Shown: positions 13,507-39,395 of the stretch, piece by piece
Numbering within the stretch: the first letter of the stretch is position 1
Layout of the letters: every line of letters starts with the position of its first letter
From: Elsinoe ampelina
Lineage: Eukaryota
Assembly (NCBI GenBank): GCA_010093995.1
Contig: ML992513.1
Span: forward strand, 62,001-126,000
Length of the DNA: 64,000 nt
Reading direction: 5' to 3'
Made by a program: the position numbers and the translations under genes
Notes under the pieces: model-generated
The model's database searches: none
What the model was told of the DNA's origin: nothing
The model's input: only the letters and a program-made list of their open reading frames with translations

Positions 13507-15631
13507 CTAAATATATATACTAAGGCTAGTATAAGTAGATTAAGTACTATTACTTAAATAAGTATCTAAGGCTAGAAGGATAGACACTAAACTAGTAGAC
13601 TATAAAGGAGATTAAATAAAGGCTAAATAATAAGACTCTTAAAGAGAGAATTAAGACTTCTATTACTAAGGAAGTATAATATTAAAAGGAGTTAACTCTA
13701 CTAGTGTTAATTAATATAGCTATTACTATTAGATTATACTTAGTATTTATCTTAGCTACTAGTAATATCTCTAACTTATAGATACTAGATTCTAGAGTAA
13801 CTAATTATATCTATAATTACACTATAAAGGATAGATATAAGGTTACTAGAATTATAGAACCTTATAAGAAACTATTCTATAGTAATACTTTACTTAGTAT
13901 TAAGAGTTAGAGAACTATTAATATTATAGCTCTTTACAAAGGAAAGTCTATAACTATCTATCTTATAAAGGTAGCCTATATACTATTAATTATAACTAAT
14001 CTAGTTAGCCTTAGGAGGTTTATTAATAGTAGAGTCTACTAGAACACTTAAACTATAGAGATTAGCTATAAAGGAAAAGTGCTCTTCTTAGTTATACTAA
14101 AGCATAACTAATATATTCTTAAGGATAACTCTAAAGCTCCTAATATTACTACTATAGTATTAAGGGATAATAATAATTATCTACTATTAGTATTTACTAT
14201 AGTTACTATAAGGACTAATTAATCTTAGTATAAAGTTATAGGCTATCTAAGCCTAAAGTCTATTAATTACCTTCTAACTACTATAGTTAGTAGTAAACTA
14301 ACTCTAACTAAGCCTAGTTTAGCTTAACTAATTTATCTTAGGTCTCTATATTAGACTTATAAGCTATTAAATGCTTAGTAGATTATATTAAGGAGCTCTA
14401 ATACTAAACTTACTATATTAAAGCTATTTAAGAGAACTACCTTTAATATTATTATTAATAGATTTACTAGCTATAATAAGGTAAGATATATAAGCTACTT
14501 TACTTATAGGACTACTAACTATTAACTAGTTACTACCTATACTTATAGATATAAGATTAATAAAATCTATATTAAGATAATTACTTATATTAAAAGCAAT
14601 TTTAGCTTTAAAATTAGATTCCTTAGGAGTAATAATAAGAGGGCCTTTAGCCTTAAATTTACTATCTTTCTAGATAGTAAAGAAATCTATTATAAGCTAT
14701 CTACTCCTTATACTTAAGCTTAGAATAGTTATAATAAAAGGATAAAAGCTATACTATTAAGGAGAGTAAGGGCAATTACTATCTTTACTAATCTACTAAG
14801 GGAATTACACTCTAAACTATATAGATTAGTAGCCTATCTAATTAATAGAATACCTCTTAAGAAGCTAAACTAGAAGACTCCTTTTAAGCTAGTTTATAGA
14901 TACTCTCTATTAGTTACTTATCTTAGGCTACTTAGATATAAAGCTTATACTTTAGATAAGCTTATTATAAGTAGTAATAAGCTTATACTAAGGGCTTATA
15001 TTAGCTATCTAGTTAGCTATAACTTAACTAACATCTTTAGGATCTTTATACTAGCCTCTAAGAAGGTTATTAGAACAAGAGATGTTAGATTTAATAAAAC
15101 TTAGTTCTATAAGCTAGAGGAACAACCTTAGCTAAAACTAATTAGATTACTTAATCTACTAAGGCTCCTATAGAAGGTTAATAAATCTAAAGGGGTATAT
15201 AAAGTAGAGGGAACAACTAAACTAAATCTAGTTTAGCATCTAGTTTAGTATCTAGTTTAGTATCTAGTTTAGTATCTAGTTTAGTATCTAGTTTAGTATC
15301 TAGTTTAGAATCTAGTTTAGAATCTAGTTTAGTAACCGAACTAGATACTATCTTAGACTCTAAGTTAGAGTAAGCTAGATTAAGGGCTAAGCCTATCTTA
15401 GTAGCTAGATAAGGGTCACCCTATTACACTAGATTAGTTACTACCTCTATTAGACTAATTAGATAAGGCTATTCTAGATCTAAACCTAGCTTAGATCTAG
15501 GAATCTTTACTAAATAAACAGTTCTTTAATACTCTAGCCTTACTACTATCTATAGTAGTATAGCTATCTCCTCTACTACTAGGAGGAGATAAAGCTAAAG
15601 GAGATAAGATAGAAGTTTAGACTAAAGGGGT
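13507..15631 (+). pseudogene. Copia gag knuckle, protease and integrase (RIP-mutated)
   Basis: De-RIP motifs: WILDSGATDHICN ~13779; WHKVMGHL ~14226; RFLRSDN ~14615; STPYTQAQNG ~14700; GYLVGYDSTNIFRIF...VIRTRDVRFDE ~15003-15100. Confidence 0.9.
15228..15332 (+). repeat. Coding minisatellite, 9 x 12 bp (CTAGTTTAG(T/C/A)AT), de-RIP peptide PVQH/PVQN, in the Copia IN-RT linker
   Basis: Directly visible tandem array that preserves the reading frame. Confidence 0.9.
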
Positions 15632-15660
15632 ACGTCACGAAAGTCCTAAGCGTAGGGAGT
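15632..15660 (+). repeat. Left terminal inverted repeat of the giant element
   Basis: Inverted match to 39364-39392. Confidence 0.8.
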
Positions 15661-15714
15661 TAGAATATTAGGTTTCTCCGTATTAAACTAAGTTTAACTA
15701 CGTTAAGTCGCTAC

Positions 15715-15807
15715 AAACGCACTACACCTACCTAAATTTAGTTAAACGTACTATACCTACCTAATTTTAGTTAAACGCACCGTACGTGCCTTAGATTAGA
15801 TAAACGC
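15715..15807 (+). repeat. Subterminal tandem repeat, ~3 copies of 29 bp
   Basis: AAACG(C/T) recurs at 15715, 15744, 15773 and 15802, with unit AAACGCACTACACCTACCTAAATTTAGTT; the third copy is diverged. Confidence 0.8.
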
Positions 15808-15829
15808 TCTACTTGCTGCAACTAGAATA

Positions 15830-16600
15830 GATGTAGAAATCAACGAGTATCTTCCGGAGAGGGCCCTCTAAGCTAGTGTTATTATAGATCTTGTCCGCTA
15901 GATAGAGGGGAAGTATATACTCTATATTATCGAAGCTCGGTATAGAAGCGCTTTCGCTATAATAGGAAAGTAGACATTGTACGCCTTGTTCTCTAGCTTA
16001 CGACATAAAACCCTAAACTAATATATACTTATTCTAACTCTATTTTATTATCTCTACTTAGTTGTCTATTAAGGTGTTAGATGTCTCTAAAGATAAGCAC
16101 TTTCGCGTAACTATATAGCTAGCGATAAAGGTTAACACTAACGAAAAGCGCCTCTATTGCCCTATAGCCTATAAGTTCTACTATCTAGCGGCCTATATTG
16201 TCGATAATATAAAACAAGCTTATAGAGGGGTATTTATAACTTAGGCTCGTAGATGCAAGGAAGCTTTTCCTAAGAAGGACTTAATTATTATAGCTAAGTA
16301 TAGTTATAATATTAAGTATAAATACCTATAGACCTATTCTAGTACTTAGAAGTCGTTAGTAATATAGGAAGAGAATAACAATAGAAGCTAGATACACTAC
16401 ATTAATAGTGGCTATAGTAGCGAGGCTATAGCCTATTCTAAGAAGATCGACACTAACACGGACAGGTGCGGGAAATGTAATAGACATTTAGTTTAGGCTA
16501 AGCTAATTCCTCGTCTACTAACACGGAATAGTATACCTACTAGAAGGATAATTCTAGAGCTACGAAAGACTACCTAGAAAAGTAAGGTCCGATAGACATT
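15830..16600 (+). pseudogene. SprT-like (GCNA/Spartan family) zinc metalloprotease, RIP-mutated
   Basis: De-RIP in one frame: TIQLAIKVDTDEKRL..IAHEFCHLAAHIVD..KQAHGGVFMTWARRC..AKHGYDIKYKYLWTC...HSKKIDTNTDRCGKCNGHLVQAKPIPR. HEXXH at 16170-16184; CGKC survives unmutated at 16467-16478. Boundaries approximate. Confidence 0.8.
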
Positions 16601-18019
16601 AGTATAGTATCTAAGTAGCCCCGGAGATAGTACTAAGGATATAGTAGTCTAAATAACAGCTCGAAGGTAGTTATAGCAAAGAAGTAAATACTCTTTCTAG
16701 GAAGTTTAAGATCTACCCTAACTACCTATCTATAAGGTTATTAGTAAGGAGGTAATTAGTAATAATAAGAGGCTCCTTCCGCTTCTTACTCTTCTCCTCT
16801 GCCTTACCGAGCTTAATACTAGTATAGCTATAGATACTAGCGAAGGTAGGGGTAGTACGCTTCTTGCCTTACTAGCTCTCGGCGCTAGTTATAGCAGTCG
16901 TCGGAGAGGTAATAGAGGTAGTGTCCGGGTTAAGATTATAGCACTTTATTACTATATATTAAAGATAAGGTTACCCCGATATATACTAAGCTTCCGGCAA
17001 TAACTCGTAGTTATAGCTATATATAAGTAATAGTAGTTATAGAGGGAGTAGTAGTAGTAGCTTTAGTTATAGTATACCTTACTATAGTAGAGAGCGAGAA
17101 GGAAGATATAGGGGAGAAAGGGGGTATTTCCCTCTCGGAGGTAGATATAATAACACTTTTTCCTACTATATCCCGCTACTCTACTATTACTACTACTAAG
17201 TAGTAGTTACGGTAATAGCGTATATAGGATAATCTAGTATACAATCTTATAGACAGGATTTGTCGTATATATATTATGTACTAATAATCTTACAAGGAAA
17301 TACTTATAACCTACATAGATACGGAGGAGGCTTTAGAGGACAAGGAAGAGGCTACTTGCCGTACTAAAGGGTAGCTTCTTCCTCGACTCGTTTCCCGCGT
17401 ATAGTATATATATAGAGATCGATAAGAATGTTCCCTAGTAGGTCTTCTAAGCTAGTGTTATTATAGATCTTGTCCGTTAGATAGAAAGGAATAAGTCCTT
17501 AGTAACTGCTCTAGTAGCATCGAGTAGATCCCTACGATATAATAGTAAATAGGGCAAAGCGCTATTGTCTATATTAGAGTCTTATTAGTAAACTTATTAT
17601 AGAGAATAAACTTTCCTCTTAGACCGCTAACTCTATTAGTAAAACTAACCTAAAGATAACTTACTAACCTAAGCCTTTTACCGCTATTGCTAAATACTTA
17701 AGGTATATCTTAAGTATCTTAAAGACTAACTTCTATAACGCCTCGCTATAATTTCCTAAGCTATCGTAATTAGTAAAGGAATAGACTAACTCTTTAGCGT
17801 AAAAACTATATAAGGCACCTTAGGCCGTAAACCCTATATAGTTTAGGGACTAACCTAATAATACATAGGTATAAACTAACTAGTTAGGGTAATACCTACG
17901 GAAGTTATTATAACTCGCTTACCTAACATAGTCTAGTAGTTAACCTAAGTATACCTAAGCGTTAGGCTATTAATATAAGAGACAATTGTTCTAGCTATAA
18001 AAGAAGTACTCTAGCTTCG

Positions 18020-21000
18020 TTAATGCCTACTACGCTTACTAACTACGCCTAGGGATCTTAACCTCTCTCGTTTTAAAGCCTTAGCTAGGTAGAGCTATTT
18101 AGACTCCTATAACTTATTCTATAGCATGTTATATGTGTCGAAGTTAGCTATATTATTAATATATATCCGGCCGTATAGCTTCGTTTTATCTACTAGCACG
18201 ACGTAGATACTATAGTAGATTTATAAGGTAGAGTAGATACGCCTACTAGTAAGAGCGTTCCGTCTAGCTCGCGCGCGTCGATTTGTCTAAGGCTTAATTA
18301 GTATTATGCTATACTCTCGATTAGCTACTCTATCTAGCCGAGTAGGCTAATATAGATCTACTAGCGCTCCTATATAGTATAGGCATTAACGCCGGCTTAA
18401 TCTACTAGACTAGAAGCTATCCTCTATAGTTATTATAAATATAATACGAGCTAGTAACTTACCTTATAGGCTATTAGGTAATGCTCTATTAGTGCCTTTG
18501 TTATTCGTTGTCTATTCTTGTACCTAGAGCTAGTCTTGCCTCTTATTACTACGTATTCTCTACTATTTAGTTATATACTAGATAAAGTCTTATTTGTCCG
18601 TATTAGGATTATTAGGATTATAGTCGAATAGTTTCCTACACTTTAAAGAATAGTAGAACTTAACGCGAAGGTTACTTACCCGGGAAGAATCTAGTTTAAG
18701 TCTGTTAGGATCTAGTTCGGCATTAAACTAATTAGGGTATTTAGTTCTCGAGTTAGAGCCTATATCGGCTATACCTTAACAAGCCTTACGGACAAACACC
18801 GCTATTACTTACTATAGCAATAGCCTAGGTAGTATGTTAATAAGCGCCTCTAGTTCTCTTACTATACGCTATATAGCTCTCCCCTTAGCGCTAGGCTAGC
18901 TAAACTAAGAAGTAACGTTTACTACATCGCTTACGCCGACTAGCGTACTTTAGATCTTAATTAGTTTAGTAGCTAATAGCCTAACTAACTTCGAGGGGTT
19001 ATCGAATACTACTAATATGTTTACTAGTTTAGTGTTATAAGTAGTAACCTAGTCTTCCTATCTAGCCTTCTTATTTGTAAGTTTAAAGGCGTCCTTAATA
19101 AAGCATACATAATTGTGCTTTAAATAATTAGAATTAAGGCTAGTAACTACTTTAAAATTATAGATAGCCTTCGAAAAATGTATTATTAAGTGCTATTTTA
19201 GAAAGTTAAAGTTGCTCTCTTCTTTCCTGTTGCTATAATAGGCCCGGAAGGTTTCTTTATACTTGTTTATCCTAAAGAGCGTAAGGTTAATATACCGGAG
19301 TATATCGTCGTTATAGGTCTTATAGTTTACTAGTAATATAAAGTCGACTAGTACGCGTATAAACTTAATAGCTTAAGGCGCCTTAACCTCCTCGAGTAGC
19401 GGTATAAATACTAGAAGTATCTAGCGTATAATACTCTTCTACTCTTAACCTGTCTATTACTTAATAGCTAAGTAGTATAAGAAGTGTCGAATGCTAGGAA
19501 ACACTAGTATACTATCGAAACGCTTATTAATAATATTAAGTATAATCTTCTTTACTAAGCGCTAGTAGCCTATTCGCTATATAGTCTCTTTAGCCTTTAT
19601 ATACCGTAGTAATCTCTATATAGGTATTAAATCCTAGAGCAATTTTTAAGTCTAGCGTAAGACGTGTATTAAAACGCCTTTAAGAAGTTAGTATAGAATA
19701 TCTAGCACTATCGCGTAGTAAATATTAGTATACGAAAGATCCTATATAAAGTAACTAACTATATAAACCTAAGAGCTTATATCTATCTTCTCGCCTCGCT
19801 ACTAACTCTCGCGTGCTTTTCTCTATAAGCGCTATTATCGCTACGTAGAGTAGTAAGTTTAGAACGGCATAGTAACTACTAGATTCTCCCTTTTGTCCTT
19901 ACTAATTAGGCAACTTATACAATGATATAGTAACTTTATACCGGTTATAGTAACCTATTCGGTGTAATTTATAGACATAGTAGTAAGTATAGAGAAGTAC
20001 CTCTATCTCTTTCTATTTGTATAGGAGATTATTTCGCCCTCTCTCGAGTAGTAATTAATAACAGCGTTAAAGATTTTCTTTATACAAGCGTAGTAGGTCT
20101 TCTCCTTGACGATATTACTACTATCTTTAATAATAGAAAGTAAGCCGATTAGTAACTACCTCGGCCGGTAGTTGCTATTATATACTTCTACCTTTAGGTT
20201 GCCTAATAATAGATAGATAGTATATACTATAAGATCTCCTTAATAGTTTATTACCTAGGTCTAATTACTTACGACAATTAATGGAATAATAGTAGCCCCT
20301 AGTATCCTAAGTCGCTTTTGTGTGTTCTACTACTAGTCGCTACTTGCTATTTTAGTGTACACTCGTCGTAGTAGCTTACCCTCGATAGCTTCTATAAAGA
20401 CTCTATATAGGCTATAGTCTATATCTGCTATAAAACCGCGATAGCTAAGCAAGAAGTGTATCGCTATAAGAATATCTAGATGCCGGAACGTGTGTCTTTT
20501 AGGCCTACGATTAGTGTTTAGTATAAAGCTCGAGGTCTACTAGCCGTTAATACCCTCGCCTGTATCTAAATTCTCTATCTTCTCTATTAGTTCATTCGTA
20601 GTTCGCTAACTAAGGCTCTCTACTAGAGGTTATATACGTAGGTCTTTAAGCAATTACGTAATTATAGCTCTACTAAGTTTCTCCTTTATAAGCTACTAGG
20701 CAAGACCTACGTCTATACTACTAATAAAGGCTTCCTTTAGTTAAGTCTCGCCTAACTAATTATAATTTAGTTCATCGTCGGTGTTAGTATATATATTATA
20801 GACTTAGGGAGATCTAGATAAGATTAGTTAACGCGAACTAAGGATAAACTATATCTATAACTAACTCTTTGCTGCTAGCTAGTATACTAGTAGCTATCTT
20901 AAACATAGTATAATTAGATGTAGCTCTACTAAATAAGGACAACCTCCTAGTACTCCGCTCTATAGATATGCTACTAGTTATGCTTACTGTAATTACTTAC

Positions 21001-21557
21001 TCTTTCTCGTGTATATCTTCTATTATAACCTTGTCTATGCTCTCCTCTTCCTTGTGTACGTTACTATCGAGCCTACTATTACTATTACTGTCTATTCTAC
21101 GTGCTAGAGGTCGAGGATTAAGGTCGGTAAAGAGACTAAGAGGATTGTCCGCTATACTATGCTATATAGTAGGCAAAGGGGGAAGGACACTCTCTGCCGG
21201 CTATAGACTTTCGTTTTTACTCTAGTATTTAGTTTAATTCTTAGTTACTGTTATTCGCGGCGGAGTAAAGTAAACTAGCAAGTTATTTAGCATTAGCGGA
21301 CTATGTTATATATTACTAGTAATACTACCTCGTTAGCCTTTATTAGATAGTAAGCGCTCTCCCTTATTAAACAAGCGGAGATTGTTATTAGTATTGTCTC
21401 TACGTAGATGTCTATTACTACGTTACTCTAGTAAGACTTGCGCTATGTTACTTATTAGTAGCTCTCTTCTCTAGTAATATAGTAGATGTTAGATAAGGCC
21501 TCTACTAGATTATATAATCTTCCTATAGGCCGAGTATTTACTAATTTGCCTTAGTAT
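18020..21557 (-). pseudogene. Plavaka-family (CMC-related) transposase with N-terminal C2H2 finger and acidic linker, RIP-mutated
   Basis: De-RIP: RRVYTEMASGDWWWNTQKRL..GATIIPLIVASDQTQV...AIYLSLGNL...RPGWLLIGLLPI (~20140-20370); ADYTEQV..TGIKSHYHCTSC (~19915-19980); PDILHQLLKGVF (~19675-19705); C-terminal HVVP...YVNN..DFDTYNML (~18120-18215); N-terminal CSACGK...LIQHL (~21480-21540). Confidence 0.85.
20791..21257. repeat. Internal direct repeat 1, copy A (acidic N-terminal region of the transposase)
   Basis: Aligns without obvious gaps to 28143-28609 (offset 7352). Confidence 0.9.
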
Positions 21558-21639
21558 ATCTGTGTTTGTCGCTTAAGATCTAAATTCGTAGTTAGAGTTA
21601 GCTAGCTAAATTTTAGCAATAGTAGGAAGTAAGAAACGT

Positions 21640-24620
21640 TTAGATACTATATTATATTAGGTAACCTAAAAGATAGTTTAACATGTATAGGGAACTAAAT
21701 TAGTCTACTAAACTAAAGAATTACATTTTTAGGTGATATAGTTAGACTATTATCTAGTAATCTTAATTATTATCTATAACAATTGTGTTCTTCTTCGCTA
21801 TAGCTTATTAAAGTTTCTAGATCTTTGCCCTCTACTTCTCTATTTCCTCGTAGATAACCTTCTATATTATTAATAGCCTACTCTATCTACTATTAAGCTA
21901 TTCTAGAGGCCTATAGAATAGAGCTGTCGGCTTTATTATAAACGCCTCTATATAGTTAGCTTTCTAAGACTTAATATTTCTATAGACCCGAGCTAGATAC
22001 TAAAGGATAGATTATAACACTAACGCTATGTTAAGTAAGATTATAGTGTCGAAGCGGTTTAGATTAAGACTAGTCTTAATAGCTCTACTCTAGGCAATTA
22101 AGATCCTTAAGCCTTCCGGCCTATTAGGTTCGATAAACGTATTATTAGACATAGCTACGTCGACGATATCTATATAGGCAGGTATAGATGTTATTCTATA
22201 GTAGACAACAACTACATTAGCATTCTTATTAATCCTAATTGCTTTGCTGTCTAGGTGCTTCTTAAGCTATTTTAGATACTATGCCCTTGTTAGTAATAAC
22301 CTAAATAGACTAAATAGACCGAACTAACCGTTGTAGCGACTACTAGCACTAACAGTATAAACGTATAGACAATTACTTGCCTCTTTAGCTCCTTCGAATA
22401 GGAGACGTTCTACTTAATAATCTTAGAAATAACACTATAAAGGACCTTTATCTAAGGACTAGCGTAGATCTTATCTATGTGCTACTATAGCGCTATCTCC
22501 GAGGGGTTATATATAATTTTATAGACAAACTTAATAGTAAAGTCGCTAAACTCTTCTACGACTACGGGATTGTCCTAGAATATATCTATAAGAGCGAGAA
22601 ATATAGAGAAAAGTAGTAGTAGCGTAACTAGGCTTAGTATTTACTCCTTAGTCTTCTTATTAAGGATTGTCTCTAATATTACTTTAGGCTTGTTAGATTT
22701 GTCCTTTTACCTATTAATTGCCTCTTATATACTCTTATCTATATTCCGTTTAATCTTCTTCTATATATTTATAAGACTATAAAGATACTTATTCTCGATA
22801 GTAATCTCTAGGTTAAAGGTAGAATATAGTAGAACTCTAATAGCTAGTAGACTAGGAGTAGTATCGAAAGGTTTCTAGATGTAGTCTACGTTTATCTTAA
22901 TAAGAATGTTCGTAAGAATAGTGCCCTATTTGCCGACTATTACTATAATCTCTTTTATAAACTATATACTTCTCTTTTTGTTAAACTTACTAGAGTCGTT
23001 GTTCGCCTTATACTATTTATTAATTACAAAGGCATAGTCTAATACTATTTAGAAGTTAAGCTTGTTAGCGATAGCTTATTAAGTCTTATCTAGTGTTATC
23101 TTTAGTGTTACTTAACATTTGTTGTCCTTAGCCTTAGTTAGCTCCTACTTAGATTTATAGATATAGTTCTTGTTAAATTCTCCTATTCTACTTCTATTTG
23201 CATTAAGCTTTTCTAATCTAAAGTCCTTATATATAGCCGCTATTAAGAACGCTACTATATTTAAGCACTTAACAAATAGCGTCCCGCTTATACCTAGTAT
23301 AAAAGGCCTCCCCGGTAGTATTCCTAGATAACACTAGGTCTACGTCTTCTAGCTAGTAACCTAATAGAACTTATTAAAGATAACAGCGGCCTAGTTTATA
23401 GGCGTAGACCTCGGCTTTCTCTCTTGTCCCTTAGGAACAAAGTTCTAATCCTTAGTATTTATATTATTCTTACTAAGGAAGTAGTAGATTATAGTGTTAT
23501 AAGTGGTAAAGAAGAACTAATTATTTATCTATAAGGTCCGGGGGTGTCGCTTATGTATATTAACTAGTTATAAGACTATAATAGTGTCGATAGGCTCGCT
23601 AGACTTATCTATCGGCTAAGACTTCTATTAGCGGTAGTCTATAGGTAGATTCTCTTTGCAAATTAAAGTGTCTATGTTATATACGTCGCTATACTTATAT
23701 TCTCGTATAGCTTAGAATATCCTTCCCTAGTATAGAACGACCTTTATATTAGGTATAAACTTCCGTGTCTCCTACACTTACTATTTTATTACGTTTAATC
23801 CGCTAATAATTAGATTATAGTTAATAGTATCCGTAGAAGCGATATCTAGCTATAGCTCGTTAACTAGTGTCTTTACCTTCTAGTACTTGCTCTACTTGTC
23901 CTTAGGTATAGTAGTATAGTTAGTATCCTAGATAACCTTTTTATTTAAGTTCTAAATTAGTAAGAGGAAGAAGAGTCCTATCGGAGTCTTTCTAAATTCT
24001 ATCTTATATATAAACACAAATGCTAGATAGCCTTCGAGGTATTTCTTAAGTATAACAAGTGCTAAGTATATCTATACTACCTTAACTAGATACTTCTTGT
24101 TCTAACTAAAACACTATATACTAGCGTTTAGTAAGTAGATGTCTTTCTTAAAGCCTATAAAGTTATAGACTCTCTCCTAGAACTCTTCGGACTAGTAATT
24201 AATTCTAGTGCCTATAGAGATAAAGCTTTAGTTAGCTAGATTATTACTAGTTTACTTGTCGTCGTTGTTGTTTATAGTATAAAGTTTAACAAAGTTCGAG
24301 CTACTAAGAGTCTTATTAAATATACAAGTTACAAGCGCTAGGATAGGTATAGATAGTATCTTAGAGACTAACGGAATATAGTACCTTACTTACTCCTTAC
24401 TAGGTATAATTATAAAGGGATACTAATTGCTATCTCGGCATTGCTTGTAGTATTTGTCTTCTATTACCCGAGTAGGACGATAGTTAATAGTAGTATTATT
24501 CTCGTTAGGTAGTAGAGAGCTAGGTTGCTTCTTAGGGGTAGATTTATATAGTAGTAGGCGCTTAGCCGGAGATAGAGAGGCTAGAGGTTCCTCTTCCTCT
24601 TCCTCCTAGACTAGAGTCGA
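21640..24620 (-). pseudogene. SF2 helicase/ATPase, SNF2-like, RIP-mutated
   Basis: De-RIP: Walker A EMGFGKT ~23985-24008; motif Ia NLII...VIEQWVQE ~23765-23820; W.AVIFDEFH ~23364-23395; ILGMSGTP ~23277-23300; C-lobe ILI...AIETGLNL...IILLD...YLARVHR ~21980-22105. Boundaries approximate. Confidence 0.75.
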
Positions 24621-24849
24621 TAGCTTCTAACTATTATAATACTAAAGAGGGTTAACTAAGTATGTTAGTATATACCTAAGTCGAACTAAGTATTAAACTT
24701 ATAAAGTACTTCTTCGGGAAGCTTCTTAACTAGATCTATACTAGGCGTAAGATAGACGAAGATTATATTACTACCTTTAACTAGGGAGTTAATATAGTTA
24801 ATTATAGTAGTACGTAGGTCGTAGTTGTCTAAGATAGGTAGGATGTTAT

Positions 24850-25744
24850 ATAGCTCTATATAATCTATCTATATAAGAATAATGTTATTACTAACTAACT
24901 TCTTCTTCTTTAGAAATAGCTTAATATTATTAAGGCTATATACGTTCGAATTATAATCCCCTAGATGTGACCTTAAAATTCTTAGACTAAACGCCTATAG
25001 ACAACGTAAATATTCTCTCTTTATAATTATGCCTAGGCTAATGTCTAATTACTTAACAATTATAAAGTTAATAATAGTTTTGTTAATAATACTCTAGACT
25101 AGACGAGATATGTCCTCTAGTATTTGCTACTAACGTATAGGCTAACTAGTGTAGTAATTAATATCTATACCTATAAGTCCGCTACCGAGTATAGAAGTCT
25201 CTAATCTTTTAGAGAGTCTACTATTAGACTAGGTAGCGGAGGGGCGCTTTCTAATATACTTCTTAGGATAAGCCTTCTTGTCTACTTTAGTCTAATTCTT
25301 CTTATTCCTAAGCTCTTACGCCTTAATAGTAAGGACAAAATCTTTAATAACATTATAACTAGATATATCGTTATAGTTTCTAACGTTCCTCTTAAACTAG
25401 TCTTAGTCTTAATAGTGTAGTCTTTAAAAGAAGATCTTTGTATAGTTATCCTAAGAGTATTATAGGGAAGTTTTAATGTTGTCTATAATCGTAGTTATAT
25501 TAATGTTACTATCCTAAGGTTTCTTATATTTAAGTCTTAGAACTGTATAGGTATTCTTATATTCTTTCTACGCTCTTACGCGTGTAGCGGCGTACTAGTT
25601 GTCGTTCTAGTTAAAGAATTTAAGGAAGAATCTCTTAATCTTAAGGTTTTTATCGAGCTATACTTAAATTTCTATAGGAGGTCTTTTGTAAAGCGAAATG
25701 TTATTAGTAGCTATACTAGCGCTATTAGGCTAATTCTTAGACAT
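24850..25744 (-). pseudogene. Unknown cargo gene, paralog of the N-terminal part of the gene at ~30850-33020
   Basis: Surviving ATG at 25744. Shared blocks with 32630-32880: GTTCCTCTTAAACTAGTCT vs GTTCTCCTTAAACTAGTCT, and FFNQNDNWY vs FFFNQDNW.Y. Confidence 0.45.
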
Positions 25745-26675
25745 ATTACGTACGTCTATAAGCTTAGTATATGCTATAAATAAAGCTTAGAATAATATCT
25801 AGTAAATAGGTTAAGTAGGTGTAGTAGATATTAAAGAAGAGATTCTATAAAGGTGTTATGTATTTATAAGTTTAGAAGAATTAAGGAGAGGATTTGTTAA
25901 TATAGTAGGTCTATACACTTTGTAATATATGCCTAACTAAGACTTAACTAAAGAGGAGATATTTAAGTAAAGAGCGCTTAAAAGAGAGATTAAAGAGGTT
26001 AAAGAAATACTAGAGAGCTATATAAGTTATTTGTTTATATATAAGAGAGTATAAACAAAGGTAAACTAAAGCAATTAAGGAGAGAAGTGACCTAAATTTA
26101 GTCGACTTAGGTTAGGCCCTGAACTAAGCACGTAGTAGTATACTAGATACAGTATATATATAATAGTAGATCACTTAGTTTAGACACTAAACTAAGAGTA
26201 ACTATAGTCCGTATACTTAGTTACCTTTTATTTTACATGCCGTATATACTAAGGATACTATTGTCGTATTTAGGGTAGATCTTAAGGGATAATAGTCTAA
26301 TAAATAAAGGGAATATAGTAGTAGTTAACGTGAAATAATTAAACAATTTTTTAACAGCGAAACTAGTATTCGTATATAAAGGACAATAGTAATAGAACAC
26401 AAATAGAAGGTAGTTAGTAGCCTATAGCAGAATAAAGAGCATAGTATATATAGCGTATAGTATAGCTTATAGATGCTAGTAAAGGAACAAAGAAAGTAAT
26501 ATACTACTATCTAATTATCTAGACTTTATAATTGCTACATGTAGAATCGAGTAGTAGAGTAGAGTAAAGGCTATATATTCTGTAGAATAGGCAGTTAATA
26601 GTACATTCTACATAATTATAAATGCGCTTTATTCCTCGCCTAGCTCTACTAGAAAGGCAATAGCGAGAGAGGACG

Positions 26676-27442
26676 CTACTAGTATAGCTCCGCCTATAAC
26701 GCTCTCTATAGTAAGCTACTATCTAGTAGAAGGTAGTAGATATATCTTTGCCCGCGATATTTCTCTATCTCTTCCTCTTTGTTATACTAGTTATTCCTCT
26801 ATAATTCTCCTCTTAATATCCTTATACTATAAGGCAGATAATCCCTAGTAGACGCTAGCTCCTCTACCCTCTTTACGTACGCTAGAACCTCTAGTAGCAC
26901 TATCTATAAGATCGGGAGATGCTCCGCGATAGATTTGCTTAGTCGTAGCTACTAGGTAGAGATAGTAGCTAGTTCTACTAATAATACGTAGCTAGTGTAA
27001 AGGAAGCTATAGAGAGCAATAGTAGCGGAGAGAGAGAAAGAGATATTAGAGTCTCCTTATACACTCTTAAGCCTATAGCGGCGTAGTAGGCAAGATAGAG
27101 AGGTATACTATAATAGATTTACTCCGGCGTAACTACTAGGTACTAGTAGTAGTTAATCCTATAAACACGATATAGCTAGTATAGAGAATACTATTAGAAG
27201 TAGTAGCGATAGCGATATAGGAGTAAATATTAGAGTTACTATTATGTATATAGCAATAGATAATTGTAGTATACTAGGCGAGGGATCCGCTATAATAGAT
27301 AGCTAGCTATTATCGAGGTTAGATAGAGAGGAGAGAAAAGGTTACACTAGGGATGCCGATACCTACGTTTAGGTCGGTATAAGTAGAGAGCGTAAACTAA
27401 GATATTATAGTGAATCGTATCTACGATATAGTTATGTCGCTA
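26676..27442. repeat. Internal direct repeat 2, copy A (~770 bp, probably a small minus-strand gene)
   Basis: Colinear with 33848-34615 (offset ~7172), differing mostly by transitions. Confidence 0.9.
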
Positions 27443-27570
27443 TAAACAGGGTTTACGACGCGTTTATAATGCTATAAAGATTATAAGTCTCTAAACATAT
27501 AATACTTAACTTTAAAGAAGAATATAATTAGATAGCATTACGTAATTAAGTTCCGAGAAGTGCTTAATCT

Positions 27571-27770
27571 AGTTAGGTCGAAATTTTAGGTTATTCTTAA
27601 ACTTCGAGAGAGAGGACTAAGAAATTGTTAGTTCGACGCGATAAACTACTAGCTATCCCCTACCGGCCGTAGTTAGGTCGAAATTTTAGATCATCTTTAA
27701 ACTTCGAGAGAGAGAACTAAGAAATTATTAGTTTAACGTAATAAACTACTAGCTGTCCCCTACTAGCTGC
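27571..27770. repeat. Tandem duplication, 2 x 100 bp, at the junction between the duplicated cassettes
   Basis: AGTTAGGTCGAAATTTTAG...AAACTTCGAGAGAGAG...ATAAACTACTAGCT starts at both 27571 and 27671. Confidence 0.9.
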
Positions 27771-28142
27771 CCTCTACTACTACTATATATAACATGCTAG
27801 AGATAGAGTAAAGCGACGATTTATACTACTAAATTTAAGCTAAGTAAGCTTCCTACTAGCAAACACTATTTTGCTATTAGTTAGACTACTATAGCCTTCG
27901 CGTGTATAACTTAGATATATCTTTAGTACCCTTACGTAGGTAGAAGTAGATTTGTTAGAACATTATATAGAGGCTAGTAGTCTATAGCGAGTATATCCTA
28001 CTAGAAGACGCTTCTACTATAACGACCTAACTCGAATTAAAATTATCTATCTAAGTTAGTAGCTTACCTTTTATTAAACGTTAGAGCGCCGAGCCGAGGG
28101 TCTCTAGCTAAGCTATATCTTATTAATTGCTCGGGGCGAAGG

Positions 28143-28609
28143 ATATATTATAGACTTAAGAAGATCTAGATAAGATTAGTTAATATAAACTAAGGATAAA
28201 CTATATCTATTACTAACTCCTCGCTACTAGCTAGTATACTAGTTACTATCTCGAACGTAGTATAATTGGATATAGCTCTACTAGATAAGGACAACCTCCT
28301 AGTACTTCGCCCTATAGACGTGCTACTAGTTGTACTTACTATAATTACTTACTCTTTCTCGTACGTGCCTTCTATTATAACCTTATCTATGCTCTCCTCT
28401 TCCTCGTGTACGTTACTATCGAGCCTACTATTACTATTACTGTCTATTCTACGTACTAGAGGTCGAGGGTTAAGGTTAGTAAAGAGACTAAGAGGATTAT
28501 CCGCTATACTATACTATATAGTAGGCAAAGAGAGAAGGACACTCTATGCTAGCTATAGGCTATTATTTCTACCTCGTTACTTAGTTCGGTTCTTATTTAC
28601 TGTAATTCG
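28143..28609. repeat. Internal direct repeat 1, copy B (transposase N-terminal paralog lacking the catalytic part)
   Basis: Aligns to 20791-21257; the sequence to its left is not Plavaka core. Confidence 0.9.
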
Positions 28610-28989
28610 TAGTAGAGCTAATAGGACTAAGCTATTATATAGCGTCGGCGGACTAAAGCTAAAATTGTATCTACGCTATAGTACTAAACACGTCGAGACA
28701 GAGTTTACTCTAATATATCTAGGTAACAGGGTTTGTTAGCTGTCTCTTACTTAAGGACGATATTAAATACTATACTTAATTAGCTATTGTTGCGCTATTG
28801 TTCTTAGTAGAGGCTTTTATAGCAATTATAAAACAGAAAGTGCCGCGTAGGTATAATAATTTTAGCTAGTAAACAATTTATAGCTCTTACTATCTCGTGT
28901 CTCGACTTGTCGCTAGTATTATAATAAGTTAGTTATAAATAGCCTCTACGAAAAAATAGCAATAGTAGTATATAAAGACGCCTCGGCTA

Positions 28990-30650
28990 TATAACGTTAG
29001 GTCGTTTATGCCTATAGTTAATCTGTTAGGAGTAGTCGATTAGTTTGCTAAACTAAAACTAGTACTTTTTAGGTAAAAATTGTAGGCGTTCCCTTAACTA
29101 ATCTTAATAAGGATAAACTAATAATTTGCTATTACTCCTCTATTAGTTTAAACAACTACGCTTTTAGTTCGTCTACTTTGCTATATTGTCTTATATAACC
29201 TTCTATATTATCGTTGGTATATCGTAGCTATAGTTAACCTACTTCTTCGGCCGATAGGATAGTATAGTTAGCTTAAGCGTAAATACTGTTATTATATCTA
29301 CGCTAGCGAATGTTATATTTTCTAAGGCACTATCGAAAGCCTACTATAATAATTAGATCTATATACTAACTTTGTGTTAAGCGAAGTTATACTATTAAAG
29401 TAGAAGCACTAGCACTTTACTTGTTATAGAACTATATACTATTCCTAGTTATAAACTAACTAGCGTAGCCTTCTCGAAGTAAGTTTACTTCGATATAGCT
29501 ACCCTAATAATACCTACGTAGCTTACTATAGACTTCTCTCTATAATCGACAACGACGACTTTAGTGCCCTTACTAATCCTAATAGCTCGGCTATTTAGGA
29601 TTCTCTTAAGTTATCGTAGATATAGCTCTCTTATTAGTGACAACTAAACTAGACTAACTAAGTTAAACTAACTACCGTAGCTACTACTAGCGCTATAGAG
29701 TTACACGCACGAATAATCCCTTACTACCTCTTAGTCTTCTAACTATAGGCTTTCTATTCTATAATCTCGAGGATAATAACATAAAGGCTCTATATTCCTA
29801 ATCTAGCGTAGCGCTAGCTATATACTTGTCTACCGCTTCGGCTCGGAGTATAAAGTCTAAAGAGTATCTATAGCCCCTACTATAATGTTAGTCGATATTA
29901 TTACTCTTTCTATACTAGCGGGGCGGTAGAGTAAATAAAGTAAGCTTATAATAATATCTAGTATAATTACCTCTAGGTTCCTTTTGCTTATCGAATATAG
30001 ATATTATCCCGTGCTACTCTCTCCTATATAGCGTCTCTATAATCGTAGTTAAGGTATACTCCCCTATACGTAAAGCAATTTATATATATAGTGCCGCTAA
30101 AGAAATAAGATATCTATCCTCGATTGAAACTTTAGAGTTCTAGTTAGGAATATCTCGAACCTAATAAGACATAAAAGTAGGTATAGCCGCTAGATGTTTT
30201 ATAATTAGGTTAAGATACATGTCAAGAGGAATAAATAGAAGTCTAGCTATCTATATAGGGACTAATATAAAGATTTTAAACTAGAAACGAGAAGTGACTA
30301 TTATATTTACAAAAAGGAAGCCGCGATAGGCTTTAACTATTCTTATATTACCTTTATATAGGTAGAGAGCTACCTCTTATTATATTATATAGTAATATCG
30401 AGTTAAATCGTGTCTAGTTTATCCTCTCTTATCTTTTGTAATAGGTACGTCTTTACCGCCTATAGATAGAGACTAGCTCTACTATATCGAAGCTATCTTT
30501 GTTAAGTAGTAGGTATCTAATTCCTTTCTCTCGGTGTAATTAACCTTATATTAAATATTAAGCTTAATACTAAACCCACGTATATAGTTAGTAGAGCTAT
30601 ACTAATGCCGAGTAGTAATTGCCTAACGAGGAGAGACATAAGATAGCTAG
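28990..30650 (-). pseudogene. Diverged paralog of the C-terminal half of the SNF2-like helicase
   Basis: Patchy colinear similarity with 21650-22500, e.g. 29041 TAGTTTGCTAAACTAAA..TTTTTAGGT vs 21701 TAGTCTACTAAACTAAA..TTTTTAGGT; 29190 ATAACCTTCTATATTAT vs 21854; 29580-29700 vs 22230-22350. No Walker A or DExH seen. Confidence 0.55.
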
Positions 30651-30849
30651 GCGTTATAGTGTTCTCTTAAAGGACTTATCCGCCCTAATATAAAATAAGT
30701 TTGTCTCTAGTTTTAGACTAACTAAACTAACTTAAGTTTGTACTTAGTTAGGAGGCGCGACCTAACCTAAAGCATCTCTGCTATTTATTAAGAGGTAGTA
30801 GCTAGAACTAATAATAGTTAGTAGGAATTCTTTATTAACTTCTAAGCAT

Positions 30850-33020: not shown

Positions 33021-33847
33021 ATTTAATAAGTATAAGAATATCTACTAGTAAAGGCGTCGTATAAGGTAGATAAGGTTAGAGGGGTTAAGATTATATAGCT
33101 AGGAACTAAGCGTAGTAAGTTAAGCGCTATAGAGCAAATAGTAGCAATTATAAATACCTACTATCTAGTATAATATTAAAATGCTACGCGGAAAGTAGGT
33201 AGTAACTTCTTAAATATAATAAAATTTGTATTTAAGATAGTATACCGAAGTAAGTAGTATACTTATAACTAAGATCTAGTTTAGGCCTCGACCTAAAAGT
33301 GAACTAGGTTAACTAAGTCTATGTTTTATATATGCTAATAGTAACACGTAATAATTACTAATATTAGGTCGATACTAGAACTAAAAGTAAATAAGTTAGT
33401 TTACTACTAACAAATATTATAGGGCGTAAATTAGGTAAGCAAATAAAACATAGCTATCGGAGGATATTATAAGTGCTAATTATCGCAGAAAATTAGTATT
33501 AAAGTAATTAACTATACTAAACGCTCGTATATTAGTGCTATATATAAAGTTATATATGCTCTAAACAGCTAGCGGACTATTTAATAAAGAGTATTATCGT
33601 ATAAAGCAACAACCTTAATATCTTTATAGTAGACAGGAGACAAGATAAATAACAAGGAATAAAGAAAGATATATAGTATACTTACACGTATTAGACAAGG
33701 AGATTTTATTTACTAGTTAGAGAAGAGAGATTAAAGCGATAGGTATATAATCTACATAGAAAGAAGTACATCGCTAACGTAAGGAAGTTATAATAAAGCG
33801 CTACTAATAACAAAACCCTGCTATAAAAGCAATTATAAAAGAGAATA

Positions 33848-34615
33848 CTACTAATATAGCTCCGCCTATAATGCTCTCTATAGTAAGCTACTATCTAGTA
33901 GGAGGTAGTAGACATATCTTTGCCCGCGATATGCCTCTATCTCTTCCTCTTTGTTATACTAGTTATTCCTCTATAATTCTCCCCTTAATATTCTTATACT
34001 ATAAGGTAGATAATCCCTAGTAGACGCTAGCTTCTCTACTCTCTTTATATACGCTAGAACCCCTAGTAGCGCTATCCGTAAGATTAGGAGATGCTCTATA
34101 ATAGATTTGCTTAGTCGTAGCTACTAGGTAGAGATAGTAGCTAATCCTACTAATGATATATAGCTAGTGTAAAGGAAGCTATAGAGGGCAGTAGTAGCAG
34201 GGAGAGGGAAAGAGATATCGGAGTCTCCTTACGTACTCTTAAGCCTATAGCGGCGTAGTAGGCAAGATAGAGAGGTATACTACAATAGATTTACTCTAGC
34301 GTAACTACTAGGTACTAGTAGTAGTTAATTCTATAAACACGACATAGCTAGTATAGAGGATACTATTAGAAGTAGTAGTAATAGCAAGGTAGGAGTAAAT
34401 ATTAGAGTTGCTATAGTATATATAACAATTGATAATTGTAGTGTACTAGGCGTAGGAATCTGCTATAATAGATAGCTAGCTATTATTAAGGTCGAATAGA
34501 GAGAAGAGAAAAGGTTATACTAGGGACGCCGATACTTACGTTTAGGTCGGTGTAAGTAGAGAGCGTAAACTAAGGCGTTATTATAAATCGTATTTGTAAT
34601 GTAGTTATATCGCTA
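33848..34615. repeat. Internal direct repeat 2, copy B
   Basis: Colinear with 26676-27442. Confidence 0.9.
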
Positions 34616-34849
34616 CGTAATAAGCATATAATAAAACTAAGAGGAGATAAAGTTTAGCGCGTTAAACTTTATAGTTCTACGAGTGTTAGTTTAGGCTAAC
34701 TAATTATAACTAAGCACAATTCTAGTATGTCTCTCTCGTAAGTAAACTAAGATCTAAGGCTTGTTTATTATAAGTAACACTTGCACCGAATTGCTACCTA
34801 TACCGCCGCTCTTCTACCCCTACTTCTCTTCTCCTCTCTATAGCTATAC

Positions 34850-39392: not shown

Positions 39393-39395
39393 AGT

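What the first reader, a model, noticed from the sequence alone, without database searches (positions are those of the whole stretch)
15830..16600. SprT/GCNA-like metalloprotease as first gene inside the transposon terminus
Seen: HEFCHL, HG..F..W, KH.Y.I.YKY.W.C and HSK.ID....RCGKC.G.LVQ in one frame after RIP correction. Established: SprT-family proteases (Spartan, GCNA/ACRC) remove DNA-protein crosslinks. Inference: the element may carry its own protease to clear transpososome or other protein-DNA adducts, or to act in germline/meiotic chromatin. I do not know this as a standard transposon accessory gene.
Basis: partly seen in the sequence, partly recalled or inferred. Interest (0 to 1): 0.8.

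Follow-up and report, generated by a model that had tools for sequence, protein, structure and literature searches.

The report
Captured SprT-like gene in dead transposon
A mutation-riddled piece of a zinc-protease gene of the SprT/GCNA type really does lie just inside one end of a large, many-copy Plavaka jumping gene in an Elsinoe-like fungus, but it looks like a recently picked-up part of one of the fungus's own genes rather than a tool the transposon needs.

Summary
The + frame at 16077-16666 is the RIP-mutated remnant of a SprT/GCNA-type gene. Read with X at stops, it hits an unmutated Elsinoe ampelina protein (P0004, E 2.4e-25). It also aligns to true Pfam SprT-like proteins, with HEFCH opposite the window's YKFYY. 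Of 141 codons aligned to P0004, 83 are identical and 47 differ only by C>T/G>A.

The remnant lies 444 bp inside the left end of a 23,759-bp Plavaka transposon (15633-39391), defined by a TA duplication, a 27-nt inverted repeat and the Plavaka transposase domain. Many RIP-diverged copies in the same organism also hold the SprT part.

The idea that this is the transposon's own protease is weakly supported:
- Only the part matching residues 124-304 of full-length relatives is present.
- The N-terminal half of the protease domain and the acidic tail are absent.
- The nearest relative is a single-copy gene of the same species group.
- Close relatives occur only in Elsinoaceae.

My best reading is a lineage-specific capture of a host gene piece that was amplified and then killed by RIP. 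I rate it a new member of a known kind, of moderate interest.

The parts
15633..39391 (.). Whole Plavaka-type DNA transposon (23,759 bp), RIP-mutated and inserted into a Ty1/Copia element
   Evidence: Five contigs of runs X1/X2 follow the window up to 15632 and then run on into other sequence (table 7). That sequence recurs in the window at 39394-39423, matching 27 of 30 letters. RIP indices are 1.9 and 0.27, against 0.55-0.59 and 1.17-1.34 in the flanks.
15631..15632 (.). Left copy of the 2-bp target-site duplication TA. The right copy is at 39392-39393.
   Evidence: Junctions printed...GGGGTA | CGTCAC... and ...GTAACG | TAGTTAAAG. The uninterrupted Copia form comes from the loose ends.
15633..15659 (+). 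Left terminal inverted repeat, starting CGTCAC
   Evidence: Over 27 nt, 19 positions are identical to the reverse complement of 39365-39391 and 4 more differ by a transition.
39365..39391 (-). Right terminal inverted repeat. Its reverse complement starts CGTTAC.
15715..15807 (.). Subterminal 29-bp tandem repeat, 3.2 copies
   Evidence: Tandem Repeats Finder
15823..15912 (+). First copy of a 90-nt direct repeat that brackets the SprT segment
   Evidence: 80% identical to 17402-17491
17402..17491 (+). Second copy of the 90-nt direct repeat
16077..16523 (+). SprT/GCNA-like remnant: active-site helix, HG..F..W stretch and zinc ribbon. It has 7 in-frame TAG stops between 16062 and 16511.
   Evidence: tblastn hits: P0004 at 16236-16523 (58% identity), P0006 residues 124-269 at 16080-16514 (E 3.6e-24), P0007 (E 4.8e-17) and P0005 (E 4.3e-10). 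The RIP-aware score is 324 against a null maximum of 41.5.
16170..16184 (+). HExxH remnant. The codons TAT AAG TTC TAC TAT read YKFYY.
   Evidence: Each codon has H, E, F, C or H among its C>T/G>A ancestors. It aligns to HEFCH of P0006, P0005 and P0009.
16221..16244 (+). HG..F..W remnant, reading YRGVFIT*
   Evidence: Aligns to KHGPAFMRW of P0006 and to MTW of P0004
16335..16478 (+). C2C2 zinc-ribbon remnant with a roughly 25-residue insert. Two Cys remain (CGKC) and two are now Tyr.
   Evidence: Aligned to the four Cys of P0004, P0006 and P0020. P0004 matches Pfam Zn_ribbon_SprT at E 5.6e-4, below the cutoff.
16508..16666 (+). Continuation in another frame, after a frameshift. This is the stretch behind the ribbon that aligns to the HMG-box-like region of the relatives.
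   Evidence: tblastn of P0004 residues 93-145, 57% identity. Of 49 codons, 28 are identical and 16 are RIP-explainable.
19658..20512 (-). Plavaka transposase domain. The gene runs roughly from 20800 to 17700 on the minus strand, tail to tail with the SprT remnant.
   Evidence: Pfam PF18759, E 4.1e-26, 92.4 bits, residues 1730-2014 of window:17400-25699:-. The one homologue found is a Marasmius Plavaka protein, E 1.3e-9. 3-base periodicity appears over 17733-20300.
14916..15110 (+). Integrase SH3-like end of the Copia element that the transposon interrupted
   Evidence: Pfam SH3_retrovirus, E 3.7e-6
39816..40358 (+). Copia reverse transcriptase, resuming beyond the transposon
   Evidence: Pfam RVT_2, E 1e-8

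Best explanation
The stretch is a dead, partial copy of a SprT/GCNA-family gene carried as a passenger by a giant PlavakaB-like cut-and-paste transposon.

Shown:
- The remnant is homologous to an Elsinoaceae-only clade of short SprT-like proteins (P0004, P0006, P0007, P0020).
- That clade branches from among the ordinary long fungal SprT/GCNA-type proteins.
- The remnant covers only the part from the active-site helix to about 40 residues behind the zinc ribbon.
- It sits 444 bp inside the left inverted repeat, tail to tail with the transposase.
- The same segment is present in many RIP-diverged copies in the same organism.
- Apart from RIP-type transitions, it is almost identical to P0004 of Elsinoe ampelina.

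Inferred:
- In the E. ampelina lineage, the transposon picked up an internal part of the host's short paralogue (transduplication). This may have happened during gap repair, since a 90-nt direct repeat brackets the 1.5-kb segment.
- The element then multiplied with the piece on board.
- RIP later mutated all copies, and probably also damaged the donor gene.
- As it stands, the remnant encodes nothing.
- Before RIP it most likely made no working protease either, because the N-terminal half of the catalytic domain is missing.
For: Homology:
- Search hits and alignments.
- Pfam SprT-like matches in the relatives: P0006 at 1.3e-14, P0007 at 3.2e-15, P0005 at 2.3e-24.

RIP as the cause of divergence:
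- Of 141 codons aligned to P0004, 83 are the same, 47 are explained by C>T/G>A and 11 are not. The reverse-direction control explains 6 differences and the transversion control 1.
- The RIP-aware score exceeds the plain score for all 6 relatives tested.
- The RIP indices fit.

Nearness to P0004:
- Six of the 11 remaining differences fit C>T/G>A in the P0004 lineage, and 5 need other changes.
- By contrast, P0004 is only 50% and 45% identical to P0006 and P0007.

The remnant is a fragment:
- Residues 1-123 of P0006, the N-terminal domain stretches of 5 relatives, and the tails of P0004 and P0006 all score at noise level. This holds for the target region and for the whole AT-rich block.
- Yet the P0004 tail aligns to the P0006 tail: query 1-209 matches 177-387.

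Transposon frame.

Many copies:
- 3466 contigs (X1) and 2507 contigs (X2) were laid at 80% likeness or more. They differ almost only by transitions (X1: 403 transition places, 3 transversion places).
- At listed variant sites inside the remnant (16231, 16248), 12-18 contigs show the other letter; at flanking sites (15833, 15979, 16679), 8-15 do.

Donor outside the element:
- A 42,666-nt contig (X1) and a 26,725-nt contig (X2) of single-copy-like depth match the stretch only at 16367-16497 plus 39 nt before 16156.

Lineage restriction:
- Only 3 of 284 hits reach E 1e-30 or better. They are P0004 itself, P0006 (Sphaceloma murrayae) and P0007 (Elsinoe fawcettii). The next best hit is at 1.4e-17.
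- In the tree the four short proteins form one group (SH-like support 98), next to long host-type proteins including that of S. murrayae.
Against: - I could not read the DNA around P0004, P0006 or P0007. That they are host genes outside any transposon is therefore inference. It rests on single-member clusters, on the long contig matching only the SprT part at 80% likeness, and on a neighbouring SprT-like gene (P0020) that the element lacks.
- The 80% threshold is close to the expected identity between a RIPped copy and an unmutated one. Other shared parts of that contig could have been missed, and table 8 is truncated.
- The N-terminus of the P0004 gene is unknown. Its annotated protein starts inside the domain, so the element's upstream 245 bp could hold a diverged N-terminus that my queries from other species cannot see.
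- All 19 stops of the frame from 15822 are TAA or TAG, so a longer pre-RIP reading frame cannot be excluded.
- The tree is a quick FastTree with long branches in the clade.
- Direction of transfer rests mainly on the missing tail.
Confidence: 0.58

Rival explanations
1. The element carried a working accessory protein of the SprT/GCNA type. This would be a DNA-bound zinc protease, or a DNA-binding derivative, made by the transposon to clear protein-DNA adducts at excision or insertion sites or to act on chromatin. It would have been kept by selection until RIP killed the family.
For: - The segment sits at a fixed subterminal place and is shared by many copies.
- The active-site HExxH, the HG..F..W stretch and all four ribbon cysteines are recoverable through RIP-type changes alone.
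- The full-length relatives P0006 and P0007 keep HEFCH/HEYCH and pass the Pfam SprT-like threshold.
- Other transposons of this group carry DNA- or chromatin-acting accessory genes: TET/JBP (PMC12730594, passages) and PAG1-3 (bioRxiv 10.1101/2025.02.11.637652, passages).
Against: - The N-terminal half of the catalytic domain is not detectable.
- There is a frameshift relative to P0004 at 16508-16523. No indel variant was listed there among the laid copies.
- Close relatives are confined to three Elsinoaceae species.
- None of the eight earlier notes listed for this element family in this genome (19 notes fitted the look-up) names a SprT gene. At least three of them report relatives elsewhere carrying SNF2 and the transposase (not tested here).
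Confidence: 0.15
2. The direction is the reverse. The short SprT-like clade is transposon-borne, or transposon-derived, throughout Elsinoaceae. On this view P0004 is an unmutated or domesticated remnant of the element rather than the donor.
For: - The clade evolves fast and has long branches.
- P0004 is annotated only as a 211-residue hypothetical protein that starts inside the domain.
- P0004 carries 6 differences of RIP type relative to the element copy, as a repeat member would.
Against: - P0004, P0006 and P0007 share an acidic tail, and P0006 and P0007 share an N-terminal half. The element lacks both.
- Each protein is a single-member cluster on one contig.
- The search with the window's transposase found no Elsinoaceae transposase protein. 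This is weak evidence, because only the 8000 best word-sharing candidates were scored.
- The long single-copy contig matches only the SprT part.
Confidence: 0.2
3. The motifs are a chance pattern produced by liberal de-RIPing of AT-rich DNA.
For: - Y and K are common in RIPped DNA, so [HY][EK]xx[HY] alone is cheap.
- The raw sequence has no SprT hit.
Against: - Hits to natural proteins reach E-values of 1e-24 to 1e-37.
- The RIP-aware score is 324, against a null maximum of 41.5 over 114 frame-pieces.
Confidence: 0.01

Closest known systems
GCNA/ACRC branch of the SprT-Wss1-Spartan protease family (Carmell et al. 2016, PMC5098910, passages read); Pfam SprT-like PF10263 plus Zn_ribbon_SprT PF17283
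   Same: It has the same order of parts after the disordered region: a zinc-metalloprotease motif helix (HExxH), then HG..F..W, a C2C2 zinc ribbon, and a short helical stretch where GCNA has its two-helix HMG box. The long fungal relatives (P0005, P0008, P0009, P0012) pass both Pfam models. Two of the four named sources call such proteins 'HMG box-containing'.
   Different: The Elsinoaceae short clade lacks the long disordered N-terminus and has a roughly 25-residue insert inside the ribbon. The window copy further lacks the N-terminal half of the protease domain and the acidic tail, and it is riddled with stops. I did not test the HMG-box likeness with a profile.
ULP1-type protease domains transduplicated into plant Mutator-like and CACTA elements (KAONASHI MULEs; Benjak et al. 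2008, PMC2528002, passages read), and Pack-type capture in general
   Same: In both, a cut-and-paste transposon carries part of a host protease gene beside its transposase. The piece can lie in either orientation and is amplified with the element. Most such captured pieces are thought to be non-functional.
   Different: This is a different protease class (zinc SprT rather than cysteine ULP), a different host kingdom and a different transposon lineage. Here the copies were then destroyed by RIP, which does not exist in plants.
PlavakaB DNA transposons of fungi (Kojima 2025, PMC12730594, passages read) and giant Plavaka elements of red algae with PAG1-3 (bioRxiv 10.1101/2025.02.11.637652, passages read)
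   Same: It has the Plavaka transposase domain, a short target duplication (2 bp here; 2-3 bp in PlavakaB), termini of the C-purine-TCA...TGA-pyrimidine-G form, large size and extra genes.
   Different: The termini read CGTCA...(TAACG, from TGACG if RIP is undone) rather than CATCA...TGATG. The published accessory genes are TET/JBP, a methylase-SET protein, a ParB-oxygenase protein and PAG1. Neither paper's main text holds the words SprT or protease. I did not open their supplements.

Membership tests
SprT-like / GCNA protease family | Significant sequence similarity to family members that pass the Pfam SprT-like model | tested here: met
   The window aligns to P0006 (E 3.6e-24), P0007 (4.8e-17) and P0005 (4.3e-10 by tblastn, 4e-14 by BLASTP). 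These proteins pass PF10263 at 1.3e-14, 3.2e-15 and 2.3e-24.
SprT-like / GCNA protease family | The sequence itself reaches the Pfam gathering score | tested here: not met
   The X-read window frame gives no SprT hit at E up to 10. NCBIfam and PDB sequences also give none.
SprT-like / GCNA protease family | Intact HExxH zinc-binding and catalytic motif, plus the downstream His of HG..F | tested here: not met
   The present codons read YKFYY and YRGVFIT*. All are reachable from HEFCH and HG..F..W by C>T/G>A alone. The motif is dead now and was probably present before RIP.
SprT-like / GCNA protease family | N-terminal half of the protease domain (roughly the first 50 Pfam SprT-like positions; the ...GG.x.I.W...AG stretch) | tested here: not met
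   RIP-aware alignment of this stretch from 5 relatives against 15633-16120 scores 19-31, against null means of 19-21 and maxima of 26-33. P0006 residues 1-123 find nothing in the whole AT-rich block.
SprT-like / GCNA protease family | C2C2 zinc ribbon behind the protease motif | tested here: inconclusive
   CGKC is kept. The two other Cys positions are Tyr codons (TAT/TAC), reachable from TGT/TGC. The unmutated P0004 matches Zn_ribbon_SprT only at 20.3 bits, below the cutoff of 28.1.
SprT-like / GCNA protease family | GCNA hallmarks: large disordered region and two-helix HMG box | not tested
   No long disordered N-terminus is seen in the short clade. The stretch 16520-16666 aligns to the region that in long relatives follows the ribbon, but no HMG profile was run.
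Plavaka DNA transposon (PlavakaB-like) | Plavaka transposase domain | tested here: met
   PF18759, E 4.1e-26, 92.4 bits against a cutoff of 26.3, at 19658-20512 on the minus strand
Plavaka DNA transposon (PlavakaB-like) | Short target-site duplication (2-3 bp) and inverted termini CATCA..TGATG (PMC12730594) | tested here: inconclusive
   A 2-bp TA duplication and a 27-nt inverted repeat are present. The termini are CGTCA.../...TAACG, which is similar to the published word but not the same.
Plavaka DNA transposon (PlavakaB-like) | Repeated, mobile unit with a sharp edge against its flank | tested here: met
   Thousands of diverged contigs cover 15633-20780. Five contigs leave the window at 15632 into the uninterrupted Copia sequence.
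Transduplicated (captured) host gene fragment | Near-identity to a gene that exists outside the element | tested here: inconclusive
   Of 141 codons, 136 match P0004 once RIP-type changes in either lineage are allowed. That P0004 lies outside an element is inferred (the long contig matches only the SprT part), not seen directly.
Transduplicated (captured) host gene fragment | Only part of the donor gene is present | tested here: met
   Homology covers residues 124-304 of P0006 only. The N-terminus and the tail are absent.

The most novel reading that the evidence does not exclude
Before RIP, this Plavaka family expressed its own SprT/GCNA-derived protein. This would be a trimmed DNA-bound zinc protease, or a protease-dead DNA binder with ribbon and HMG-like helices. 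Its job would be to remove or compete with proteins stuck on transposon DNA, such as the transpososome or topoisomerase adducts. That would make it the first cut-and-paste transposon known to carry a protein of the DNA-protein-crosslink repair family. A side reading is that amplification of the captured piece turned RIP against the donor gene and crippled it. This could explain the P0004 start inside the domain and its 6 RIP-type differences.
Probability: 0.13. Interest if true: 0.75.

Novelty: new member of a known kind. Interest (0 to 1): 0.4.

Why it matters
It adds a SprT/GCNA-type gene to the list of passengers seen in Plavaka and CACTA-like transposons. I found no paper naming that pairing: 0 papers for 'Plavaka' with 'SprT', and 0 for 'SprT-like' with 'DNA transposon' and 'transposase'.

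If capture is the right reading, this is a clear fungal case of transduplication, a process mostly documented in plants. In a RIP-proficient fungus it carries a special cost, because multiplying a host gene piece can expose the donor gene to RIP. That is directly testable at the P0004 locus.

It also flags a fast-evolving, Elsinoaceae-only set of short SprT/GCNA paralogues. One of them, P0020, has lost the first zinc-binding histidine. These may be of interest to people who study duplication of DNA-protein-crosslink proteases.

As a transposon mechanism, the finding is probably of little consequence.

Tried and rejected
- Raw X-read frame against Pfam, NCBIfam and PDB sequences gave no SprT hit.
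- P0006 against PDB sequences gave no protease structure. The only hit was a weak one to a His-tagged YycN entry, which I take as noise.
- No whole genome is held for the window, so the other copies and the P0004 locus could not be read.
- Pfam on X-read + strand 16601-20800 and 20801-30400 found nothing. The minus strand 17400-25700 gave only Plavaka, and no SNF2 at E up to 0.05. I did not scan 25701-39391 on the minus strand or 30401-39391 on the plus strand.
- Purine/pyrimidine-coded scans for inverted ends missed the TIR at my thresholds. It was found only after the loose ends fixed the edges.
- My first RIP-tolerant scoring took the maximum over ancestor sets. It was useless because every frame scored high. 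I replaced it with a log-odds model.
- A purine-at-1 / pyrimidine-at-3 periodicity scan marks coding stretches but cannot tell the strand.
The tree I report is FastTree on 128 domain rows. Of the 151 proteins with a profile hit, 24 were dropped for covering fewer than 150 profile positions, and P0004 was then added by hand.
- Transposase search: 1 hit among 8000 scored candidates, a Marasmius protein.
- Naming of the tree neighbours failed.
- Earlier-scan look-ups by place near the finding, by DNA and by the P0004 protein found nothing.
- No RNA holder was listed, and the two 'RNA?' runs X3 and X4 laid nothing. This says nothing about expression.
- The Gypsy-like element on the minus strand at about 6-13.5 kb was read by eye in the text printed. 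My one HMM try used the wrong frame and found nothing.
- Intron and exon borders between 15970 and 16062 could not be fixed by eye, so I make no claim about them.
Full report
**Setting.** The window has GC-normal flanks (about 0.52) around an AT-rich block from about 5000 to 41500 (GC about 0.32). Inside the element described below, TpA/ApT is 1.9 and (CpA+TpG)/(ApC+GpT) is 0.27. The flanks give 0.55-0.59 and 1.17-1.34. That is the signature of fungal repeat-induced point mutation (RIP); the usual thresholds are recalled, not taken from a call. No whole genome is held for the window, and an assembly gap lies at 39516-39710.

**The observation.** Translating from 15822 with X at stops gives P0001, 273 residues with 19 stops. 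It contains PIAYKFYYLAAYIV, AYRGVFITX, AKYSYNIKYKYLXTY and AYSKKIDTNTDRCGKCNRHLVX. As it stands, this frame matches no SprT model: Pfam gives only a weak TOP3B ribbon hit at E 0.006, NCBIfam gives nothing and PDB sequences give nothing.

A word-seeded search nevertheless found one protein. This is P0004, a 211-residue hypothetical protein of Elsinoe ampelina (E 2.4e-25, 1 hit among 24 candidates). P0004 is an unmutated version of the same sequence.

- tblastn places P0004 residues 1-96 at 16236-16523 (58% identity). After a frameshift, residues 93-145 fall at 16508-16666 (57% identity). The joint E-value is 2.7e-37.
- P0004 reaches P0005 of Meristemomyces frigidus, a 633-residue protein that passes Pfam SprT-like (2.3e-24) and Zn_ribbon_SprT (1.4e-7).
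- The window frame aligns directly to P0005 (BLASTP E 4e-14, tblastn 4.3e-10). HEFCH lies opposite YKFYY, and the His-Gly of KDQPHGKQF sits opposite the window's YRG region.

**RIP explains the damage.** I compared each window codon with the aligned P0004 residue.
- Of 141 codons, 83 encode the same residue and 47 can be turned into it by undoing C>T or G>A alone. The other 11 cannot.
- The same test run in the reverse direction explains 6 differences. A transversion version explains 1.
- Of the 11 leftovers, 6 fit C>T/G>A on the P0004 side and 5 need other changes.
- All 7 stops between 16062 and 16511 are TAG.
- A log-odds alignment allows a 35% chance of C>T/G>A per site. It scores the P0006 core at 324 half-bits, against 240 without the RIP model. 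The maximum is 41.5 in 114 frame-pieces of the rest of the block. All six relatives tested score higher with the RIP model.

**The family.** phmmer of P0004 against 1.84 billion representative proteins gave 284 hits at E 0.001 or better.
- Only three hits reach 1e-30: P0004 itself, P0006 (Sphaceloma murrayae, 388 residues, 1.7e-55) and P0007 (Elsinoe fawcettii, 371 residues, 2.6e-40). The next hit stands at 1.4e-17.
- P0006 and P0007 are full-length. They pass Pfam SprT-like (1.3e-14 and 3.2e-15) and keep HEFCH/HEYCH.
- Nearly all the other hits are fungal SprT-like proteins, many 600-800 residues long with long N-termini. Their architecture matches what Carmell et al. describe for GCNA: a disordered region, a zinc protease, a C2C2 finger and a two-helix HMG box (PMC5098910, passages).
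- E. ampelina also has P0020, a 301-residue SprT-like protein. Its accession number is adjacent to that of P0004 and it lies on a contig of the same length, so the two are probably neighbours. P0020 reads AREFCH in place of HEFCH.
- I built a FastTree on 128 domain rows. Of the 151 proteins with a profile hit, 24 were dropped for covering too little of the domain, and P0004 was added by hand. P0020, P0007, P0006 and P0004 form one group (SH-like support 98). This group sits beside long host-type proteins, including P0009, the 718-residue protein of S. murrayae.
- The short clade therefore looks like an Elsinoaceae-specific, fast-evolving offshoot of the ordinary gene.

**The transposon.** I laid the contigs of two DNA runs of one sample (X1, X2) on 15400-20780 at 80% likeness or more.
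- This gave 3466 and 2507 pieces. Their differences are nearly all transitions: in X1, A>G 76, C>T 114, G>A 122 and T>C 91, against 3 transversion places.
- At listed variant sites inside the remnant (16231, 16248), 12-18 contigs show the other letter. At flanking sites (15833, 15979, 16679), 8-15 contigs do.
- The stretch, SprT part included, is therefore one repeat family with many RIP-diverged copies. Summed depth is similar along it, but the tool warns that this figure is not a copy number.
- Five contigs follow the window up to 15632 and then continue into other sequence. That sequence recurs in the window at 39394-39423, matching 27 of 30 letters.
- The element is therefore 15633-39391 (23,759 bp). 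It is flanked by a TA duplication and has a 27-nt inverted repeat with 19 identical positions plus 4 transitions.
- It interrupts a Ty1/Copia element, with the integrase SH3-like end at 14916-15110 and RVT_2 at 39816-40358.
- On the minus strand, at 19658-20512, lies a Plavaka transposase domain (PF18759, E 4.1e-26). The single protein homologue found is a Marasmius Plavaka protein.
- Termini of the form CGTCA...TGACG (after undoing RIP) and a 2-bp duplication resemble PlavakaB, which has CATCA..TGATG and 2-3 bp duplications (PMC12730594, passages).
- The SprT remnant starts 444 bp inside the left end and runs inward, tail to tail with the transposase. Between the end and the remnant lie only a 29-bp subterminal repeat and one copy of a 90-nt direct repeat. 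The second copy of that repeat lies at 17402-17491, so the pair brackets the SprT segment.

**What is missing.** Homology covers only residues 124-304 of P0006.
- The N-terminal 123 residues of P0006, the corresponding domain stretch of five relatives, and the acidic tails of P0004 and P0006 all score at noise level. This holds upstream of the remnant and across the whole AT-rich block on both strands.
- Yet the P0004 tail is homologous to that of P0006, and the N-termini of P0006 and P0007 align well with each other.
- The element thus holds less of the gene than the unmutated relatives do.
- The frameshift at 16508-16523 relative to P0004 seems to be shared by the family, since no indel variant was listed there among the laid contigs.
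- A 42,666-nt contig (X1) and a 26,725-nt contig (X2) have depths of about 150-160, against thousands summed over the repeat. They match the stretch only at 16367-16497 (24 of 131 letters differ) plus 39 nt before 16156. I take this to be the unmutated P0004-type locus of the same organism, sharing only the SprT part with the element. This is inference, because the listing is truncated and the 80% threshold is near the expected identity.

**Reading.** The simplest account is capture.
- A giant Plavaka element of the E. ampelina lineage picked up an internal part of the host's short SprT/GCNA paralogue and multiplied with it.
- RIP then destroyed the copies.
- The 6 RIP-type differences on the P0004 side, and its annotated start inside the domain, suggest that the donor gene suffered too.
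- Protease-domain capture by cut-and-paste elements is known from plant MULE and CACTA elements carrying ULP1-like domains (PMC2528002, passages).
- A SprT-type passenger is not described in the Plavaka papers I read in passages, nor in two full-text searches. I did not open the supplements of those papers.
- Earlier notes of this scan describe the same element family in this genome, at 16.6 and about 24 kb, with an SNF2-like gene upstream of the transposase and relatives in other fungi. None of the listed notes names a SprT piece. I used these notes as leads only and did not test the SNF2 claim. My Pfam scan of that strand found none at E up to 0.05.

**Limits.**
- I could not read the DNA around P0004, P0006 or P0007, nor the other copies of the element. 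The direction of transfer and the host-gene status of the short clade therefore remain inferred.
- A real accessory function before RIP is not excluded. I put it at about 0.15.

Noticed in passing
window 20791-27442 and 28143-34615: Inside the transposon there is a large internal direct duplication with a spacing of about 7.2-7.35 kb. Its pieces are 60-85% identical. The 24-kb form may therefore be a tandem-duplication variant.
   Followed up: partly
window 15823-15912 and 17402-17491: A 90-nt direct repeat (80% identical) brackets the 1.5-kb segment that holds the SprT remnant. It may be a footprint of how the piece was inserted into the element. A pre-capture element should have one copy and no SprT piece.
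   Followed up: no
P0020 (KAF2227633.1) and P0004 (KAF2227634.1), Elsinoe ampelina: Two short SprT-like genes have adjacent accession numbers on a contig of the same length. P0020 reads AREFCH instead of HEFCH and QKKRID instead of HSRSID, so it has probably lost zinc binding. P0004 is annotated from a Met inside the domain.
   Followed up: partly
P0004 versus window 16236-16666: Six of the 11 residue differences not explained by RIP in the window are explained by C>T/G>A on the P0004 side. This hints that the single-copy gene was itself hit by RIP.
   Followed up: partly
window 5323-5579 and 41175-41431; 6515-6743 and 13273-13501: Two pairs of direct repeats (88% and 94% identical) look like LTR pairs. 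The outer pair would belong to the Copia element that hosts the transposon. The inner pair would belong to a second retroelement on the minus strand, whose Gypsy-like RT, RNase H and integrase motifs I read only by eye.
   Followed up: partly
window 15226-15334: A 12-bp tandem array (ATCTAGTTTAGT, 9 copies, 96% matches) lies in the Copia part just left of the insertion site. The summed contig depth there is several times that of the transposon.
   Followed up: no
alignment A1, ribbon region (P0009 and the short clade): The loop between the two cysteine pairs of the zinc ribbon is expanded in this fungal group. The insert is about 25 residues in the short clade and an even longer acidic run in the long S. 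murrayae protein. P0007 has Ser in place of one ribbon Cys.
   Followed up: no
window 39516-39710: A run of 195 N (an assembly gap) lies in the Copia element, 125 bp right of the transposon end.
   Followed up: no
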